A stretch of DNA of 64,000 nucleotides from a virus. Below, piece after piece: positions 36,401-64,000 of this stretch; position 1 is the stretch's first letter, and every line of letters begins with the position of its first letter. The stretch is taken from IMG/VR virus record IMGVR_UViG_3300022226_000003, positions 1-64,000 of that record. One strand, given 5' to 3'. The notes beneath the pieces are model-generated. The model did not search any database, was not told the DNA's origin, and saw only the letters and a list, made by a program, of their open reading frames with translations. Made by a program: the position numbers and the translations under genes.

Positions 36401-39400
36401 ACGATAGGTACAATCAGCAAAATAGCCAAGGCTCCTCTAGCCACAATTACCCGTCTATTTGTTGCTTCAAAAGCTGCCATCCTGGGGCAAAGCAGCGGTA
36501 TCCTTTCTCAGTATGTATTTGGACCGCTAGGCCCCACACGCTCATTGGCATTAATAGGAATTGCTTTAGATCAATTAGGATTGTTTGAATCACTCTTCAG
36601 AGACTCAGCGCTAACTCAGACTGTTATTGAGGGAGGTCTGCTGTATTTACTGGTCACTGGCGGTAAGGGTGTTTCCACAATCGCAGATTTCATTGGCAAG
36701 AAAGTAATATTTCCATTAGGCAGTAAGCTAGCAATTCTAGCTGCTAAAACAAAGGTAGGTACAACGCTGTTTGATATCTTCTTTGGTGTCACCGGTAATT
36801 TTGGAGATAGAGCAGTTTCTGCAGTCAGGAAAGTTATTGGTAGCGTAAGCGACAAGATCACCACACTGGGTGCTAAAGGTGTTCAATTTGCCGTGCCTTT
36901 CATAAGTAGATTTTTATTTGGCAGAGAACCCGGAGCTACGAAAGACCGTGCAAAGAATGAGTTAGGATTAGTATTTGATGTAATTAGAGATAGCCTTGCA
37001 GGTTTCATTAGACGAGTTCGCCAAACGAATATTGCAGAGGCGATTTTTAGTTTTGGAAATCCTGCACAAATCTTTGACCCGATTAAAAGAGGTTTAATAA
37101 GTTTCTCTACTTTCTTTACAAATACGCTAGGTAAAATGCGTAAGGCCTCGTTACTTTTTGCAGGTCCTGATGGTATTGTAGGTAAGGCCATCTTCGGCAA
37201 AGCCGGTAAAGCTGCGTTAATTACTGGCATCATAGCTACTCTTGCAATATTCAGTTCGAGTGTAAAAGCTGCAAGTGATGAAGTTCCTTCGGATGGAGAG
37301 AAAGGAGGTTTCTTTTCTGGAATCTTTGACAGTCTCGCAAAGTTGGCAAATGAGAACCCTCTGACAGCAACACTCATACCTGCAACAATTATTGCATTAA
37401 TTGCTTTTAGACGACAAGTTTTGAGACTTATACTGAGCGCATTCCCCTCTAATGCATTAAAAGGTTTTGAAACATCTTCTTTGAAAAGTATTAAGAATGT
37501 TGGTAAAATCTTTAGGAGTGTTATTGGTGGATTAGTTGGCACATTCGTCGGTGCTGAGTTAGGTAGAAGAATTGGACCTGAGTTTGAAATTATTGGCGCA
37601 ATTGCTGGAGCTGCTCTCGGTGAAGGTATCTTTAGAGGCTTAGGGAGAGCACTGGCCAGCAGTTTTGTTGTCAGAATCGGTGGCGCAATTTTAGCGGCAA
37701 TTCTGTCAGTAAAAGCTGCAATAGTAGCTGCAATAGCCTCGCTTGTTGCTGTCACTGGAGGACTTTTATATGTATTGTTCTTTGGGGAGACTGGTAATTT
37801 TTCCAAAGACTTAGATTCAGCAATAAATAAAATCAAGAACTTCTTTGGTTTCGGCAAAGATGCTTCCAAGGAAATTTCAACAGGAATCTCAGAAGCTGCT
37901 GAAGCTTTTGCAAATTTTGAAAGAATACGATTTAATTTTTCATTGGAAGGTATTGATCCCGAGCAAATAAGTGAAAGAGAGCAAGGTAAGCTAGATTCCC
38001 GAATTGCTGAATTAAACGAAACTATCTTACGAGCAAGGGATGAGCAAGAAGAGACCGGTAAAATATCAACTGAGACATTAAATGCAATTAATGCTCTAGA
38101 TAGAGGCTTGACAAGATTTACAGACAAACTTAAAGAACGTAGTGAAATTGATTTTGAAGGTACTACCAATCTCTTTAAAAAGTTCGAAGAATTCGAGCCA
38201 GTAAAATTTGGTGAGAAAATTGTAGTTGGTCTGAGGCAAAGTTTCCTAGATTTCTCTTTCTTCTTGAAAGAGATTTCTTTAAAGATAAAAGGATTCTTTG
38301 GCTCTGAAACTGCTGACAGTGAGTTAGAAGATCTAACCAAATTAAAGGATACACTTTTCAGTGCTACATTTAGAAATATCAGTCCCGGTGTTAAAGAAAT
38401 AATAAAATTGCGAGAAGACCTGAACAACACGAAAGGTCTAGACGCAGATATTGTAGAAAGAATAAATAACGGTACAAAAGACTTATTAAATGTTCTTGAG
38501 ATAATTCAAAGAGAGTCTAATTTTCTAGGATTTGAAACACCATTAGAAGAAGATAATAAGTTTCTGGTATTAAGAGAGGTTCTTGTAAAGAGACTCAAAA
38601 AGACTTTAGAGGAAGCTCTTGTTGCTCAACAAAGATTAGTTGATGTTAAAGAGTTTAGAAACACTCTAACGCAAATCTCTCGTGGATTAAACGAAGTAGG
38701 TGTCAGTTTTGATGCGTCAAAATTATTCTTAGATGAAACTGATTTTAATACACTCATAGATTTAGCTGGCAATGCAGCGACAATTGCTGCAGAGAGACTC
38801 AAAGGTGTTGCAAACACTGACGAATTAACACAGTTAAATTTAAGATCATTAGATATTCAAAGAGAAGCTGAGAAACTTATACAAAGAGGTGAAACAGCAA
38901 GTTTAAAGGTTCAAGCCGCAGCTGCAGTGCTTCTATCAAAAATAGGTGAAGATACTTTCTCAGAAAATACAATTGAAAAATTAAGCAAAGACACCGCGAA
39001 TAAAATAGTTGATTTAGTAGAAAAGATTCAAGGTAAAGAGCAGCAAATTAAACTAGAGGTAGAATTAGATACTGATCTTGCTAAATTCCAGATACGAAGA
39101 TTAACCAATGAGGTTGCAAATCTTAGAACCCAGATCAGTAACATTGTCTTAGAAGAAGGCGGATTTGATGCTCTAAATGAATTTGCTGATAAATTCGGTA
39201 TAGATTTTAATAATGCACTAAGGCAATTTGACTTAAGTTTCATATTATCTGAATTTGATAGATTGCAAAATATTCTGAAAAGAATTAGAGTTGTAAAAGA
39301 TAAAGATCCTAAGCAGGCAGCTTTACTTAGGAAAGAATTTGATCTTCTTGTTGCTAATCTAAATATAGCCGATAAAACAATTAATGAAATTCTCTCAGAT

Positions 39401-48728: not shown

Positions 48729-48785
48729 CCAGGCGGAGGAGCACGTTGACAAGGATGTCAATACCAATTTTACAGGAGATTAAAA

Positions 48786-59789: not shown

Positions 59790-61439
59790 ATGGGAAAGAT
59801 TAAAGATAAAAACAATCCTTGTTTGGATCCTGTTTGTGGATCTAGTGATGCAAGGCAAATATATGAAGATGGTACCTCATTCTGTTTTTCTTGTCAGAAA
59901 TTTTTTACTGCTAAAGATGAAGAAGATTTCGATAAAATAGAAGTAGCCCCAACTAAAATAAAAGTAAATCAAGAAAAAATTTTAGAAGATATTAAAGAAT
60001 ACCCAATAAGAGGTTTCAAAGAAAGGAATGTCACGAAACGAATTGCAGAATTTTATGATGTGCGTGTGTCTTATGGCACAGATGGTTTCATTGATTCACA
60101 CTACTATCCATATCCGAAAGGTTACAAAGTAAGGGGTTTGCCCAAGCACTTTAAATGGTTAGGCAAGTCCGGAGGAATTTTCGGAAAAGATAAATTCAAT
60201 GCAGGTGGTAGGAAACTAGTAATTTGTGAAGGTGAGATAGATACCCTGGTTGTTGCTCAAGCTAACTATGACAAGTATAAAAAATTTTATCCAGTGGTGG
60301 GGTTATCTTCCGCTTCTGCAACTGAAGAATTATTAAAAGAAAGAGACTGGTTAAGATCTTTTGAAGAGGTAATCTTGTGTTTTGATGAAGACGCCGCAGG
60401 AGAGGAAGCCAGAGAAAGAGCGATAAAAATAATTGGTATTGATAAGGTTCGATTCACAAAGTTACCTGAGCATGATGCCGATAGAGTATACGCAGAAAAA
60501 GGTTCAGACACTCTATTACAATGTATCTGGAATGCACAAAAGTATATACCTCCGGGCATAATTGGCAAAGAAGAGTTATGGGAATCGTTAGTTAAGTACA
60601 ATGATACACCCTCTTTTCCATACCCTGAATGTATACACGGATTAAATGAAAAATTAAAAGGAATGAGAGAAGGTGAAATTAGCTTATTTATTTCAGGGAC
60701 TGGTTCAGGTAAGAGTACACTATTACGAGAGATAATGCTACATGTTTTAGAAACAAGTGATGAGAAAATTGGAGTAATTTCATTAGAGGAATCCCCTGCC
60801 GAAACTGCTAGGAAGCTAGCGGGGATGGTATTGAAGAAGAACCCAGCATCTGAAGAAATTCCTTTAGATGAATTGAAAATTGGATTCGATAAAGTCTTTG
60901 GTGACGATCGTGTAATAGTGCTCAATCATGGATTAGAGCTAAATGATAATTCTATAATGGACCAACTTGAATATATGGCATTATCGGGTTGTAAAAAATT
61001 ATTTATAGATCATATTACAATACTTGTCTCTGAAGGTATAGACCACTACGAAGGTAATGAAGCGCAAGATCGCATTATGAATGAGTTTGTAAGATTAACA
61101 AAACGACACCCAGTATGGATTGGTTTAGTTTCACATTTAAGAAAAGTAATGCCAGGAAGAAAGTCTTTTGAAGAAGGTAAGATGCCGACATTGGATGATA
61201 TTCGAGGATCAGGTTCCATAAAACAGATTTCCTCAGATATCATAGCTTTTGCAAGAAACCTGACAGCAGAAGGCGAATTAGAGAGAAATACTATAAAGAT
61301 GAGTGTTCTCAAAAGTCGTTTCACAGGTCTTACAGGTCCTGTCCCTAGCTCAGTTTATAAGTTTGATACCGGAAGGTTATTAGCTACGGAACAAGAGTTT
61401 GAATTTATTCCTGAAACTCAATTCACAAAATTACCCTAG
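59790..61439 (+). CDS. Primase-helicase (T7 gp4-like)
   Basis: Zn finger C..VCGSSDA...CFSC, TOPRIM ICEGEID/FDED, Walker A GTGSGKS, IDHI, LVSHLRK, RGSGSIKQ, KSRFTG. Confidence 0.93.
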   Translation: MGKIKDKNNPCLDPVCGSSDARQIYEDGTSFCFSCQKFFTAKDEEDFDKIEVAPTKIKVNQEKILEDIKEYPIRGFKERNVTKRIAEFYDVRVSYGTDGFIDSHYYPYPKGYKVRGLPKHFKWLGKSGGIFGKDKFNAGGRKLVICEGEIDTLVVAQANYDKYKKFYPVVGLSSASATEELLKERDWLRSFEEVILCFDEDAAGEEARERAIKIIGIDKVRFTKLPEHDADRVYAEKGSDTLLQCIWNAQKYIPPGIIGKEELWESLVKYNDTPSFPYPECIHGLNEKLKGMREGEISLFISGTGSGKSTLLREIMLHVLETSDEKIGVISLEESPAETARKLAGMVLKKNPASEEIPLDELKIGFDKVFGDDRVIVLNHGLELNDNSIMDQLEYMALSGCKKLFIDHITILVSEGIDHYEGNEAQDRIMNEFVRLTKRHPVWIGLVSHLRKVMPGRKSFEEGKMPTLDDIRGSGSIKQISSDIIAFARNLTAEGELERNTIKMSVLKSRFTGLTGPVPSSVYKFDTGRLLATEQEFEFIPETQFTKLP

Positions 61440-61448
61440 GAGATATTA

Positions 61449-63389
61449 GTGCAATACGCTGACTTACCGAAAATAATAACACCATGGAGCACTGTTGGTT
61501 ATCTGACTTACAAACGGACCTACTCAAGAAAGTTTGAAGAAGAGGAAGACTTACTAGCTGCAGACGCTCCCACAGAAGAATTTGAAGATACTATATTAAG
61601 AATCATTAATGCATGTGATGAACAATTTAATTGCGGATTCACCAAACATGAAGAATATAGATTAGCTGAATATTTCTTAAAATTAAAAGGGTCAGTGGCC
61701 GGTAGATTTTTATGGCAAGCCGGGACAAAAACAGTAGATCGATTAGGCCTACCTTCTCTACAGAATTGTGCTTTTGTGGTAATTGATAGCCCGGTAAGAC
61801 CCTTCACTTGGGCTATGGATATGTTAGCTGTCGGTGCAGGTGTCGGGTATAATTTACAAAAACACCATATCGACAAACTACCCACAGTTAGACCGTGGTT
61901 CAAAGCGCCTACACGTTATAATGATGGCGGTGCTGACTTCATAGTACCTGATTCAAGGGAAGGTTGGGTAAAGTTATTAGGTAAGGTGCTAAAAGCTGCC
62001 TTTCTGTCGAGCAGCCCCGAAAATGGGACTTTTACATTTTCAACACAAATGATTAGGAGTAAGGGCGCACCCATTAAAGGATTTGGTGGCACAGCGAGTG
62101 GACCAGAAGACCTAGTTTGGGGGATCTCGCAAATCTCCGCCTTATTGGAAAAGCGTAGAAATAAAAAGATAAGACCGATAGATGCTCTAGATATTATGAA
62201 TATAATTGGTCATATTATTGTGGCCGGAAATGTTAGGCGTTCAGCCCAAATAGCAATTGGCGATCCTGACGATGTTGAATTCTTGCTAGCAAAAAGATGG
62301 GACATGGGCACGATACCTAAATGGCGAGCAATGTCAAATAACAGTGTAGCTTGTGAAGATATTAATGATTTGCATCCTTATTTTTGGCAAGGGTATGAAG
62401 GCAGGGGAGAACCTTATGGTTTAATAAATTTACCTTTGTCGAGATCTTGCGGAAGGTTAGGAGAAACTTGGTATAGCGACCCAGATGTAGAAGGCTATAA
62501 TCCTTGTGCGGAGCAATCGCTTGTCCCCTATGAGACTTGCTGTCTCTCCGAAGTATTCTTGCCTAATATAGAGTCAGAAGCGGAGTTGATGGATATCTGT
62601 GAGCTCCTTTATAGGATTAATAAGCATGCAATGACACTGGGATCACATTTAAAAGAAACAGAAAAAGTTGTTCATGAAAATTTTAGAATGGGGATAGGGA
62701 TGACGGGTATCCTTCAAGCCAGCGAAGAGCAAATTAGTTGGCTATCTGAAACGTATAGATACTTACGACGTTTCGATGTTAAGTATTCTCATAAACGCGA
62801 TTTACCGAGGTCAATTAAACTTACAACAGTTAAACCAAGTGGAACACTATCCCTACTTCCCGGCGTGACTGCCGGAATACACCCAGGATTCTCTCAGTAT
62901 ATGTACCGGCGAATCACCATAGCCACTGAACACCCTTTAACGGCGATGTGCAGAGAAAAAGGTTATCCTGTTGAATTTAAGAAAGAGTTTGATGGAAGTG
63001 AGAATTATGGGTCATGCATAGTCACATTTCCTTTTAAATACTCAGAGGGTACCATTCTAGCTGAAGAAATGACGGCAATAAAACAACTTGAGTGGATTCG
63101 TAAATTACAAACGGAATGGTCTGACAATAGTGTATCCTGTACTGTCTATTACAGTTCTGAAGAGATACCTGAAATAAAGAGATATTTAGAAAAATATTAC
63201 AAGAGTCATCACAAAAGTCTTTCCTTTATGTTGCATCAAGATCATGGCTTCGAACAAGCTCCTTTTGAGAGTATAACAAAAGAAGAGTATGATGCCCTTG
63301 TCGCAAAAGTGGAACCAATAACTGAAATTGATTCCGCAGATTTTGAGCTAAATGATGAATGTGTGGGCGGAATGTGTCCCGTGAGATAA
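61449..63389 (+). CDS. nrdJ: Class II (B12-dependent) ribonucleotide reductase
   Basis: YKRTYSR, LQNC, VAGNVRRSA, NPCAEQSL, TTVKPSGT and C-terminal ECVGGMCPVR. No beta subunit adjacent. Confidence 0.9.
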   Translation: MQYADLPKIITPWSTVGYLTYKRTYSRKFEEEEDLLAADAPTEEFEDTILRIINACDEQFNCGFTKHEEYRLAEYFLKLKGSVAGRFLWQAGTKTVDRLGLPSLQNCAFVVIDSPVRPFTWAMDMLAVGAGVGYNLQKHHIDKLPTVRPWFKAPTRYNDGGADFIVPDSREGWVKLLGKVLKAAFLSSSPENGTFTFSTQMIRSKGAPIKGFGGTASGPEDLVWGISQISALLEKRRNKKIRPIDALDIMNIIGHIIVAGNVRRSAQIAIGDPDDVEFLLAKRWDMGTIPKWRAMSNNSVACEDINDLHPYFWQGYEGRGEPYGLINLPLSRSCGRLGETWYSDPDVEGYNPCAEQSLVPYETCCLSEVFLPNIESEAELMDICELLYRINKHAMTLGSHLKETEKVVHENFRMGIGMTGILQASEEQISWLSETYRYLRRFDVKYSHKRDLPRSIKLTTVKPSGTLSLLPGVTAGIHPGFSQYMYRRITIATEHPLTAMCREKGYPVEFKKEFDGSENYGSCIVTFPFKYSEGTILAEEMTAIKQLEWIRKLQTEWSDNSVSCTVYYSSEEIPEIKRYLEKYYKSHHKSLSFMLHQDHGFEQAPFESITKEEYDALVAKVEPITEIDSADFELNDECVGGMCPVR

Positions 63390-63466
63390 GCGAAGCTATC
63401 CATAAAAAGGACGCCAAGCAATCCTGGGATTTATGATAGAAAGCACAAGGACGTGCATTTTTATTA

Positions 63467-63713
63467 GTAGTGGCAGGCGGGGCTCGGTAGAACTGGGTTG
63501 ATCCCGTAGTGGCAGGAAATGGTGTGGCAGGCATGGAGGGTTGGCCTGGGCGAGTTATGGTGTGATCGGTCTGGAGCGGATTGGTTGGAAAGGGTGTGGC
63601 AGGCAAGGTTGGCTAGGTAAGGAGCCGCGAGACGCGAATTGGTTGGAAAGGGCATGGCAGGCGCGGCATGGTGTTGTCAGGGCAAGCTAAGACTAGGCAA
63701 GACAAGCCATGGA
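63467..63713 (+). repeat. Non-coding G-rich array with ~5-nt GG periodicity; putative ncRNA
   Basis: Runs such as GGCGG GGCTC GGTAG and GGCAA GCTAA GACTA GGCAA GACAA GCCAT. TGGCAGG occurs five times (63471, 63510, 63525, 63597, 63655). ATTGGTTGGAAAGGGnnTGGCAGGC occurs at 63580 and 63638. Confidence 0.8.
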
Positions 63714-63800
63714 TTATTTAAAATAAATTACTTAATATTATATATATCTATAAAGTCGGGGTATATATAATTTTCAATTACGACTTAGGAGAATGATAAA

Positions 63801-64000
63801 ATGGCGATTTCAATTAAACCAATTAAAAGGCAGAAAGTATCTTTTCATATTGTTGGGACTACTCCCATGATTCAACATAAATGGGCTGAAAAAGCTATCA
63901 TGCAAATGCGTGAAAAGCATGCAGGTAAGAAAACTCGAGCACGTGATATTAGAAAACCTGAAGAAGAATTTCAAAATGCGTGTTATCTTACTGATAGTGA
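63801..64000 (+). CDS. Truncated ORF, possible RAMP/Cas7-like RNA-binding protein
   Basis: RBS AGGAG 63787-63791. MAISIKPIKRQKVSFHIVGTTPMIQHKWAEKAIMQMREKHAGKKTRARDIRKPEEEFQNACYLTDS runs off the window. The ORF is clear; the family call is tentative. Confidence 0.5.
   Translation, partial: MAISIKPIKRQKVSFHIVGTTPMIQHKWAEKAIMQMREKHAGKKTRARDIRKPEEEFQNACYLTDS

What the first reader, a model, noticed from the sequence alone, without database searches (positions are those of the whole stretch)
63467..64000. GG-periodic non-coding array next to a RAMP/Cas7-like gene: candidate RNA-guided system
Seen: a ~250-nt intergenic, strand-asymmetric G-rich island in an AT-rich genome. It is built mostly from 5-nt units of a GG(Y)-like triplet plus a variable dinucleotide (GGCGG GGCTC GGTAG; GGCTA GGTAA; GGCGC GGCAT GGTGT; GGCAA GCTAA GACTA GGCAA GACAA GCCAT). 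A recurring TGGCAGG punctuates it (spacings 39, 15, 72, 58 nt), and a 25-nt block occurs twice with 23/25 identity. About 90 nt downstream an ORF starts whose hydrophobic strand + G-T-T-P-h-h-x-H and later EEEF..A.Y resemble the N-terminal RRM strand of RAMP/Cas7 proteins. Knowledge: Cas7 oligomerises along guide RNA with a fixed nucleotide period. From memory, phage GGY/NN repeat RNAs paired with Cas7-like proteins have recently been reported under the name VIPR; I cannot verify this here. Inference: each TGGCAGG-delimited unit is a guide RNA coated by the protein, and the variable dinucleotides encode a gapped target (rival phage, host or self). This array is more degenerate than strict GGY-NN.
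Basis: partly seen in the sequence, partly recalled or inferred. Interest (0 to 1): 0.92.

Follow-up and report, generated by a model that had tools for sequence, protein, structure and literature searches.

The report
Phage VIPR RNA-guided silencing locus

Summary
The window is the first 64 kb of a complete 77.5-kb phage from sediment metagenomes.

- **Protein.** The ORF that starts at 63801 runs to 64406 (201 aa). It is a sequence homolog of the solved SUSP1 Vipr protein (family profile E 2e-14 over the full length). Its model has a Cas7/Csm3 fold (pLDDT 96.5, Z 11.8). It keeps the residues that grip the GGY bases in SUSP1.
- **Arrays.** The stretch 63467-63715 has a GG period of 5 nt with 4-nt slips that no dinucleotide shuffle reached (0 of 2000). 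A second array lies beyond the window at 64913-65084, after a conserved accessory gene.
- **Relatives.** 92 of 106 related loci carry strict GG-period-5 arrays on the same strand as the gene, and none on the other strand. GGCA junctions there are spaced 49-69 nt apart (5n+4). 81 of 83 loci keep the accessory gene.
- **What is unusual.** Only 51-56% of the units here are canonical GGY, against 82-97% in most relatives.

No target was found and no RNA data exist. VIPR is already published in four 2026 preprints, and this scan has noted it in at least 317 other genomes. I class it as a new member of a known kind.

The parts
63443..63456 (+). Hairpin 1: a GCAC/GTGC stem with an AAGGAC loop, followed by a T-rich run. 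It sits 6 nt after a -10-like TATGAT box and heads the upstream array.
   Evidence: folding z -4.75; a 31-nt block 81% identical to the one at genome 65095-65125. The motif is specific to this phage; it is absent from 106 related loci.
63467..63715 (+). Upstream vrRNA array of degenerate GGY/NN pentamers, punctuated by 4-nt GGCA junctions at 63472, 63526, 63598 and 63656. An extra in-frame GGCAG unit sits at 63511. The first unit, 63472-63525, is exactly 4 + 10x5 nt. Three units end in a conserved block of about 24 nt before the junction.
63801..64000 (+). First 200 nt of the vipr gene, which encodes a RAMP/Cas7-like protein (201 aa, P0001). The whole gene is 63801-64406 in genome coordinates, which use the window's numbering.

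The rest of the system lies beyond the window edge, all on the + strand:
- 64406-64879: vap-type accessory gene (157 aa, P0270). Its start overlaps the vipr stop (TAATG).
- 64860-64887: sigma-70-like promoter, TTGATA-16-TATATT.
- 64890-64907: hairpin 2, a GATGAC/GTCATC stem with an AAGGAC loop.
- 64913-65084: downstream vrRNA array, with a perfectly phased 59-nt unit at 65011-65069 between GGCA junctions at 65011 and 65070.
- 65108-65121: hairpin 3, a GCAC/GTGC stem with an AAGGAT loop.
- 65123-65237: structured element of about 115 nt, of unknown role.
   Evidence: - vipr.
- vap.
- Promoter: (a consensus match only).
- Hairpins.
- Downstream array.
- Structured element.

Best explanation
This is a VIPR (Viral Interference Programmable Repeat) locus of a 77.5-kb phage. 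It consists of an upstream vrRNA array, then vipr, vap and a downstream vrRNA array, all on one strand.

The mechanism below is inferred by homology to the SUSP1 system. The arrays are transcribed and cut or trimmed at the 4-nt GGCA junctions into guides of about 50-70 nt. Vipr protomers polymerise along each guide, one per pentamer. They grip the G-G-Y bases and expose the two variable bases. The exposed dinucleotides pair with double-stranded DNA that carries the same dinucleotides separated by one skipped base. This forms a gapped R-loop that blocks transcription, most likely of a competing phage, satellite or prophage. The accessory protein assists in an unknown way.

Shown here: protein homology and fold, conserved RNA-contact residues, array periodicity, conserved junction grammar, and conserved gene-array synteny across relatives. 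Inferred: transcription, processing, RNP assembly, the skip rule in this clade, and the target.
For: **Protein**
- The PDB sequence search returns only SUSP1 Vipr (36pp). E is 1.3e-7 with the single sequence and 2.3e-14 with the family profile, covering profile positions 21-198 against chain residues 4-188.
- BLASTP against a Felixounavirus Vipr gives E 5e-12.
- The AlphaFold2 model built on 84 homologs has pLDDT 96.5.
- The top Foldseek hits are all Csm3 or type VII Cas7 proteins, E about 3e-7, probability 1.00.
- The exhaustive VIA search puts Cmr4, Csm3 and Cas7 at the top, Z 11.8-8.
- SUSP1 residues that bind G1, G2 and Y3 are H17, R138, D177, W178 and R179 (paper .720927). They align to H26, R136, E175, W176 and R177 here. 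In the family alignment they are conserved in 76, 84, 83 (E or D), 67 and 84 of 84 sequences.

**Arrays**
- The period-5 GG signal beat all 2000 dinucleotide shuffles in the upstream array. In the downstream array the on/off-phase contrast did the same.
- 51-56% of units are GGY, against 18% in shuffles. G1 is kept in 83-92% of units and Y3 in 80-89%.

**Comparative evidence**
- 92 of 106 related loci have strict arrays within 1.5 kb on the vipr strand, and 0 on the other strand.
- The same detector finds the known arrays of a SUSP1-type Felixounavirus, which serves as a positive control.
- In relatives, GGCAGG spacing is congruent to 4 mod 5 in 504 of 787 cases, with peaks at 49, 54, 59, 64 and 69 nt.
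- A vap homolog lies downstream in 81 of 83 loci.
- Gordonia phage ODay has the same vipr, array with TGGCAGGC junctions, and vap layout.

**Self-targeting**
- No match by the skip rule stands above shuffled-guide controls in the phage's own genome. The paper reports the same for its systems.
Against: - The arrays are much more degenerate than in most relatives: 51-56% canonical units against 82-97%.
- Two of the four upstream unit lengths (72 and 58 nt) do not fit 5n+4.
- Several 4- and 6-nt units break the register.
- Constant blocks of about 24 nt occupy part of each unit.
- No target has been identified for any guide.
- The accessory protein has no recognisable DNA-binding domain.
Confidence: 0.88

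Rival explanations
1. A VIPR locus in decay. The vipr and vap genes are intact, but most of the array has drifted. Under AT-biased mutation, GG has relaxed to GA, GC or GT. Only a few units still work as guides (for example 63472-63525 and 65011-65069), or none do.
For: Canonical GGY units make up only 51-56% of the arrays. Register-breaking 4- and 6-nt units occur, and two unit lengths are off 5n+4. The genome is about 38% GC. The other AT-rich relative (L025, 37% GC) is even more degenerate, at 26% GGY.
Against: - G1 (83-92%) and Y3 (80-89%) are still strongly kept. Neutral decay should erode all three positions.
- The GGY-contact residues of the protein are intact.
- A second paper reports working-looking VIPR clusters with non-canonical trinucleotides such as GAC/NN, which also occur here (10.64898/2026.10.21.760802).
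- The sequence is identical in three sediment metagenomes.
Confidence: 0.2
2. A CsrA/RsmA-titrating sponge RNA. The G-rich transcripts and their GGA-loop hairpins sequester a host CsrA protein rather than guiding Vipr.
For: Three hairpins with the loop AAGGAY fit the SELEX CsrA consensus core ACARGGAUGU (consensus from my own knowledge). They head the two arrays and a third RNA. Several GGA triplets occur inside the arrays.
Against: - The family-wide conserved unit is GGY, so relatives' arrays contain almost no GGA.
- The hairpin motif is absent from 106 related loci.
- The phage encodes no CsrA, and the host is unknown.
- This reading does not explain the 5-nt period, the GGCA junction grammar, or the strict linkage to a Vipr gene.
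Confidence: 0.03
3. A DNA-level element (a replication origin, a G-quadruplex tract or a recombination hotspot) that sits next to the gene by chance.
For: The G/C strand asymmetry is strong. One of three metagenome assemblies breaks inside the array.
Against: - Cumulative GC skew shows no turning point here.
- Arrays lie on the vipr strand in all 92 loci that have them, which argues for a transcribed RNA.
- The position varies between upstream of vipr, between vipr and vap, and downstream of vap, but always stays within the module.
- Few runs of three or more G are spaced as a G-quadruplex needs.
Confidence: 0.02

Closest known systems
VIPR type II of Escherichia phage SUSP1 and the Pseudomonas fulva prophage (bioRxiv 10.64898/2026.04.26.720920, .720927, 10.64898/2026.10.15.759431; PDB 36pp)
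   Same: Homologous Vipr protein of the same length (201 against 202 aa) with the same GGY-contact residues. A two-gene vipr-vap operon. Pentamer guide arrays both upstream and downstream of the genes. Phage-borne.
   Different: - Only the C-terminal third is alignable by pairwise BLAST, at 34% identity.
- The accessory protein is not detectably related to the Felixounavirus Vap1.
- Each type II vrRNA is a separate unit with an invariant pseudoknot tail. Here the units abut head to tail and are separated by a 4-nt GGCA junction.
VIPR loci with 'staggered' vrRNA arrays (legend of fig. S18 of 10.64898/2026.04.26.720920), for example the unannotated locus of Gordonia phage ODay gp19-gp20
   Same: Same Vipr clade (39% identity, E 3e-36). 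Same vap family (E 1.5e-13). Continuous arrays with TGGCAGGC junctions.
   Different: The arrays here are far more degenerate. They carry constant blocks of about 24 nt before the junctions and are headed by phage-specific GGA-loop hairpins. The paper's type number could not be assigned because its supplementary tables are not held.
CRISPR type III and type VII backbone subunits (Csm3, Cmr4, Cas7)
   Same: RRM core, glycine-rich loop and thumb. Best structural matches, Z 8-11.8. Oligomerises along a guide RNA with a fixed nucleotide period (known for Cas7 and for SUSP1 Vipr).
   Different: Sequence identity is about 10%. There are no other cas genes and no repeat-spacer array. The period is 5 nt with 2 pairing bases, against 6 nt with 5 pairing bases. 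The target is double-stranded DNA read with a one-base skip.
VIPR-like clusters with non-canonical repeat units (GAC/NN and others) in 10.64898/2026.10.21.760802
   Same: GAC/NN, GCY/NN and GTT/NN units occur here among the GGY/NN units.
   Different: Those clusters have a uniform alternative trinucleotide. Here the units are mixed within one array.
CsrB/RsmZ-type sponge RNAs
   Same: GGA in hairpin loops at the head of each RNA.
   Different: See the rival explanations. The body of the array follows Vipr grammar, not CsrA grammar.

Membership tests
VIPR system | A Vipr protein: a stand-alone minimal RAMP homologous to the described Vipr family | tested here: met
   SUSP1 Vipr (36pp) is the only PDB sequence hit, at E 1.3e-7 with the single sequence and 2.3e-14 over the full length with the profile. 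BLASTP against a Felixounavirus Vipr gives E 5e-12.
VIPR system | RAMP fold with RRM core, glycine-rich loop and thumb | tested here: met
   Model pLDDT 96.5. Csm3, Cmr4 and Cas7 top both fold searches. The glycine-rich loop GFGVGLCEWRPEKGGEYG has invariant G168, G172 and G185.
VIPR system | Residues that bind G1, G2 and Y3 of the repeat (SUSP1 H17, R138, D177, W178, R179) | tested here: met
   They align to H26, R136, E175 (a D-to-E change), W176 and R177.
VIPR system | Adjacent tandem YNNGG (GGY/NN) pentamer repeats, at least 4 units, on the gene's strand | tested here: met
   The arrays have 50 and 35 units, of which 56% and 51% are canonical. The periodicity beat all 2000 shuffles. They are more degenerate than typical, and the paper allows for internal degeneracy.
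VIPR system | Minimal locus with an accessory vap gene and no other cas genes or CRISPR array | tested here: met
   A translationally coupled 157-aa gene follows vipr and is conserved in 81 of 83 related loci. No PADLOC or NCBIfam family matches either protein. I did not scan the rest of the genome for cas genes.
VIPR system | vrRNAs are expressed and co-purify with Vipr | not testable with these tools
   This needs small-RNA sequencing and a pull-down.
VIPR system | Guides match natural targets by the one-base skip rule | tested here: inconclusive
   Only exact-match scans were possible, so no target could be called. Details are under Tried and rejected.
VIPR type II (SUSP1 clade) | Vap1 accessory protein and separate vrRNAs with an invariant 3' pseudoknot tail | tested here: not met
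   The accessory protein shows no similarity to the Felixounavirus Vap1 (E 1.5). The arrays are continuous with GGCA junctions and have no SUSP1-type tail.
CRISPR-Cas class 1 effector | Cas7 encoded with other cas genes and a repeat-spacer array | tested here: not met
   The neighbouring genes are ribonucleotide reductase, vap and small phage ORFs. The only repeats are the pentamer arrays.

The most novel reading that the evidence does not exclude
This phage may use a distinct array grammar. Units would be relaxed from G-G-Y to G-N-Y. Each guide would end in a constant 3' block of about 24 nt. Each array would be its own transcription unit, beginning with a CsrA-type ACAAGGAYGU hairpin. Host CsrA, or another reader of that hairpin, would then control the stability or assembly of the guide RNAs and couple VIPR silencing to host physiology.
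Probability: 0.08. Interest if true: 0.6.

Novelty: new member of a known kind. Interest (0 to 1): 0.33.

Why it matters
- **It checks the scan.** A tool-less reading correctly recognised a VIPR locus from raw sequence.
- **It extends VIPR.** The locus sits in an AT-rich sediment phage whose replication genes resemble those of Roseobacter and Ruegeria podoviruses.
- **It is a natural tolerance test.** The degenerate arrays show how much departure from GGY a Vipr with intact contact residues can accept. That bears on guide-design rules if VIPR is developed as a programmable repressor.
- **It points to a testable relative.** Gordonia phage ODay and Mycobacterium phage Donkeykong carry the same protein and accessory-gene families. 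Both are cultured and tractable. In Donkeykong the array is annotated as a protein-coding gene.

Tried and rejected
**Searches that found nothing**
- Rfam with permissive thresholds gave only noise over 63000-64000 (E above 2.7, far below gathering scores) and nothing over 63300-65400. This includes the hammerhead ribozymes the paper reports in some arrays.
- The single-sequence AlphaFold run failed (pLDDT 34). The run with an alignment worked.
- Vipr has no match in Pfam, NCBIfam or PADLOC, and only PHROG 4652, of unknown function.
- The accessory protein has no match in Pfam, NCBIfam or PADLOC. It has no meaningful PDB hit, either as a single sequence or as a 45-sequence profile. The ESM Atlas gives only unnamed viral clusters. 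A weak PH_CERLI1 hit in 6 of 45 members and a dynein light chain hit at E 0.02 are taken as noise.

**Target search**
- Decoded guides, written as NN with a one-base skip, were searched by exact match only.
- The 11-unit guide 65011-65069 was searched in full in viral contigs and genome contigs; its units 3-11 were searched in viral contigs only. All gave 0 hits.
- The 10-unit guide 63472-63525 gave 0 viral hits. It gave 1 bacterial hit, in an MFS-transporter gene of a Hyphomonas MAG.
- I reject that hit as chance. About 1.1 hits are expected for 20 fixed bases in 596 Gb on both strands (my arithmetic). The skip base falls on codon position 2, not the wobble position. The context is not a mobile element.
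- Two conserved canonical guides from marine relatives also gave 0 exact viral hits.
- 189 canonical guides from relatives, searched against this genome and all fetched loci, gave 2 hits at 85% or more. Guides with shuffled unit order gave 4-6.
- The phage's own genome holds nothing above shuffled-guide controls at any skip length.
The lack of a target is therefore uninformative.

**Expression**
- No RNA holder is listed. Three sediment metagenome runs hold the locus as DNA contigs with identical sequence.

**Other**
The closest protein relatives (69-71% identity, for example on a 69-kb contig) could therefore not be examined. The best locus I could read has 67% identity (L032).
- The phage has no CsrA gene.
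- The G-rich windows near 76400-76800 are coding sequence, not arrays.
- The paper's supplementary tables are not held, so no VIPR type number could be assigned.
- No complex prediction was run, because I make no claim that the two proteins bind each other.

Full report
**Setting.** The window is the first 64,000 bases of a 77,534-base IMG/VR virus record rated 100% complete. I laid the whole genome in the Python box and read the remaining 13.5 kb as locus L002. Coordinates above 64000 in this report are genome coordinates in the window's own numbering. The genes upstream of the finding are phage replication genes: a primase-helicase and a ribonucleotide reductase. The primase-helicase is closest to Roseobacter phage CRP-7 (51% identity) and to the Ruegeria phages DSS3_PM1 and DSS3_VP1. 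The locus occurs with identical sequence in three sediment metagenomes.

**The observation.** 63467-63715 is 43% G and 15% C in a genome of about 38% GC. Together with a second stretch at about 64900-65100, it is the most G-skewed part of the genome.
- GG dinucleotides recur at lags 5, 9-10, 14-15 and 19-20. That means a 5-nt period with occasional 4-nt slips.
- Lag 5 scores 18, against 7.7 +/- 2.4 in dinucleotide-preserving shuffles. None of 2000 shuffles reached the observed lag-5 value, the sum of lags 5+10+15, or the on/off-phase contrast.
- GGCAGG starts at 63472, 63511, 63526, 63598 and 63656, giving spacings of 39, 15, 72 and 58.
- The 23/25 duplicated block exists. It is part of a 32-nt junction family with five copies across the two arrays.
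- The ORF starts at 63801 behind an AGGAG site.

**The protein.** The ORF continues past the window edge to 64406 (201 aa, P0001).
- Pfam, NCBIfam and PADLOC have no family for it. PHROGs has only an unknown-function family.
- Against all PDB chain sequences, the single hit is 36pp, 'SUSP1 Vipr protein' (202 aa, E 1.3e-7).
- The family is large. An exhaustive search found 3,638 representatives of 50%-identity clusters at E up to 0.001.
- A profile of 84 members matches SUSP1 Vipr over its whole length at E 2.3e-14.
- With that alignment, AlphaFold2 gives a model with pLDDT 96.5.
- The top Foldseek hits are all Csm3 or type VII Cas7 subunits, E about 3e-7.
- The Foldseek-independent search puts Cmr4, Csm3 and Cas7 chains at Z 11.8 down to 8.
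- The structural paper names the SUSP1 residues that hold the repeat: H17 and D177 for G1, R138 and W178 for G2, and R179 for Y3. In the HMMER alignments these correspond to H26, E175, R136, W176 and R177 here. They are conserved or invariant across the family.

**The rest of the locus, beyond the window.**
- A 157-aa ORF (64406-64879) overlaps the vipr stop codon.
- Behind it lies a second G-rich array (64913-65084) with the same period (contrast statistic reached by 0 of 2000 shuffles).
- This array includes a perfectly phased unit of 4 + 11x5 = 59 nt between GGCA junctions at 65011 and 65070.
- The layout (array, vipr, accessory gene, array) is the one drawn for the SUSP1 locus in the discovery paper.

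**Relatives.** I fetched 106 related loci from viral and metagenome collections, with 38-67% protein identity.
- A simple detector requires GG at 8 or more of 10 consecutive 5-nt steps. It finds arrays within 1.5 kb of the gene, on its strand, in 92 loci, and none on the opposite strand in any locus.
- Most of the 14 loci without a call are truncated or have relaxed repeats.
- The detector also recovers the known arrays of a SUSP1-type Felixounavirus.
- In relatives the arrays are near-perfect GGY/NN tracts, 82-97% canonical.
- A 4-nt GGCA unit interrupts these tracts. GGCAGG spacings peak at 49, 54, 59, 64 and 69 nt, and 504 of 787 are congruent to 4 mod 5.
- A homolog of the 157-aa protein lies downstream of vipr in 81 of 83 loci with enough flank. 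It is either directly adjacent or separated by an array.
- Cultured phages carry the same module. In Gordonia phage ODay the array sits between gp19 and gp20. In Mycobacterium phage Donkeykong the array lies under the annotated CDS gp48.

**How this locus differs.**
- Only 56% of units in the upstream array and 51% in the downstream array are canonical GGY. G1 (83-92%) and Y3 (80-89%) are kept better than G2 (about 70%). The replacement units are GAC, GCY, GTT and the like.
- The first upstream unit is in phase: 39 + 15 = 54 = 4 + 50. The next two (72 and 58 nt) are not.
- Three upstream units end in a shared block of about 24 nt before the junction. The downstream junctions share a different block of about 25 nt.
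- Similar relaxation is seen in an AT-rich relative (L025, 26% GGY) and in L029 (43%).
- A later preprint reports VIPR clusters with GAC/NN and other non-canonical units.
- The accessory protein is unrelated by BLAST to the Felixounavirus Vap1. The vrRNAs lack the SUSP1-type pseudoknot tail. This is therefore not type II. I could not assign the type, because the paper's tables are not held.

**Mechanism.** By homology, the arrays should be transcribed and processed at the junctions. Vipr should coat each guide, one protomer per pentamer, sequestering GGY and presenting NN. The complex should bind double-stranded DNA by the one-base skip rule and repress transcription of a competing mobile element. 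None of these steps is shown for this phage.

**Targets.** My searches were limited to exact matches.
- No target was found for either of the two in-phase guides. The single bacterial hit, in a Hyphomonas MFS-transporter gene, equals the chance expectation and has the skip base on codon position 2.
- No match in the phage's own genome stands above shuffled-guide controls.

**Rivals.**
- Partial decay of the arrays is the main one (about 0.2). It is compatible with the locus being VIPR.
- A CsrA sponge and a DNA-level element are poorly supported. The family-wide conserved unit is GGY, not GGA. The arrays follow the gene's strand in every case. GC skew shows no inflection at the site.

**Novelty.** VIPR has been described in four 2026 preprints. 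This scan has already noted it 433 times in at least 317 genomes. This is a new member of a known kind with some unusual array features, and the interest is modest.

Noticed in passing
48749-48758, 63445-63454, and genome 64894-64903, 65110-65119 (all + strand): There are four hairpins with the invariant core ACAAGGAYGT. The loop is AAGGAY and the outer stems differ but still pair (TTG/CAA, GC/GC, GATG/CATC). Three head the two VIPR arrays and a third structured RNA, each a few nt after a -10-like box (TATGAT, TATATT, TAAGAT). The fourth lies about 25 nt upstream of a ribosome-binding site in the early region. The core equals the CsrA SELEX consensus ACARGGAUGU (from my own knowledge). The hairpins could instead be 5' stabilising stem-loops or signals for one of the phage's own RNA polymerases. 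They are absent from 106 related VIPR loci, and the phage has no CsrA gene.
   Followed up: partly
L002:2123-2237 (genome 65123-65237, beyond the window): A structured element of about 115 nt, closed by a 15-bp stem (MFE -51 kcal/mol for the 146-nt stretch folded, z -3.4), follows hairpin 3. It has no Rfam match and no counterpart in related loci. It could be a small RNA or the leader of the 76-aa ORF at 65259.
   Followed up: partly
L002:2058-2086 (genome 65058-65086): The repeated junction block of the downstream array contains TTGACA. In its last copy it is followed 17 nt later by TAACAT. The array end therefore doubles as a sigma-70-like promoter (10 of 12 matches) pointing at hairpin 3.
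   Followed up: no
L111:1516-1844 (Mycobacterium phage Donkeykong, NC_051648.1, about 36906-37234): A strict GG-period-5 array (10 of 10 in phase) lies upstream of the Vipr homolog gp49. It sits under the annotated protein-coding gene gp48 ('hypothetical protein'), which is probably a mis-annotated vrRNA array.
   Followed up: partly
L110:2614-2786 (Gordonia phage ODay, MW534375.1, between gp19 and gp20): An unannotated vrRNA array with TGGCAGGC junctions lies between a Vipr homolog (39% identity) and a homolog of this phage's accessory protein. This cultured phage would be a tractable model for this VIPR clade.
   Followed up: partly
L025:2868-3300 (IMG/VR contig, 37% GC): An AT-rich relative has an array whose junction reads GGCAGTT. 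Its units are mostly GTT/NN or GNT/NN (26% GGY, G1 86%, Y3 95%). This suggests that G2 is dispensable in AT-rich lineages.
   Followed up: partly
63546-63553: In one of the three sediment metagenome assemblies the contig breaks inside the upstream array. This is probably a repeat-induced assembly break. No sequence differences were seen between the samples.
   Followed up: no
window 59790-63389: The replication module (primase-helicase and ribonucleotide reductase) is closest to Roseobacter phage CRP-7 and the Ruegeria phages DSS3_PM1 and DSS3_VP1. None of these appeared among the Vipr protein hits in the phage collection.
   Followed up: no
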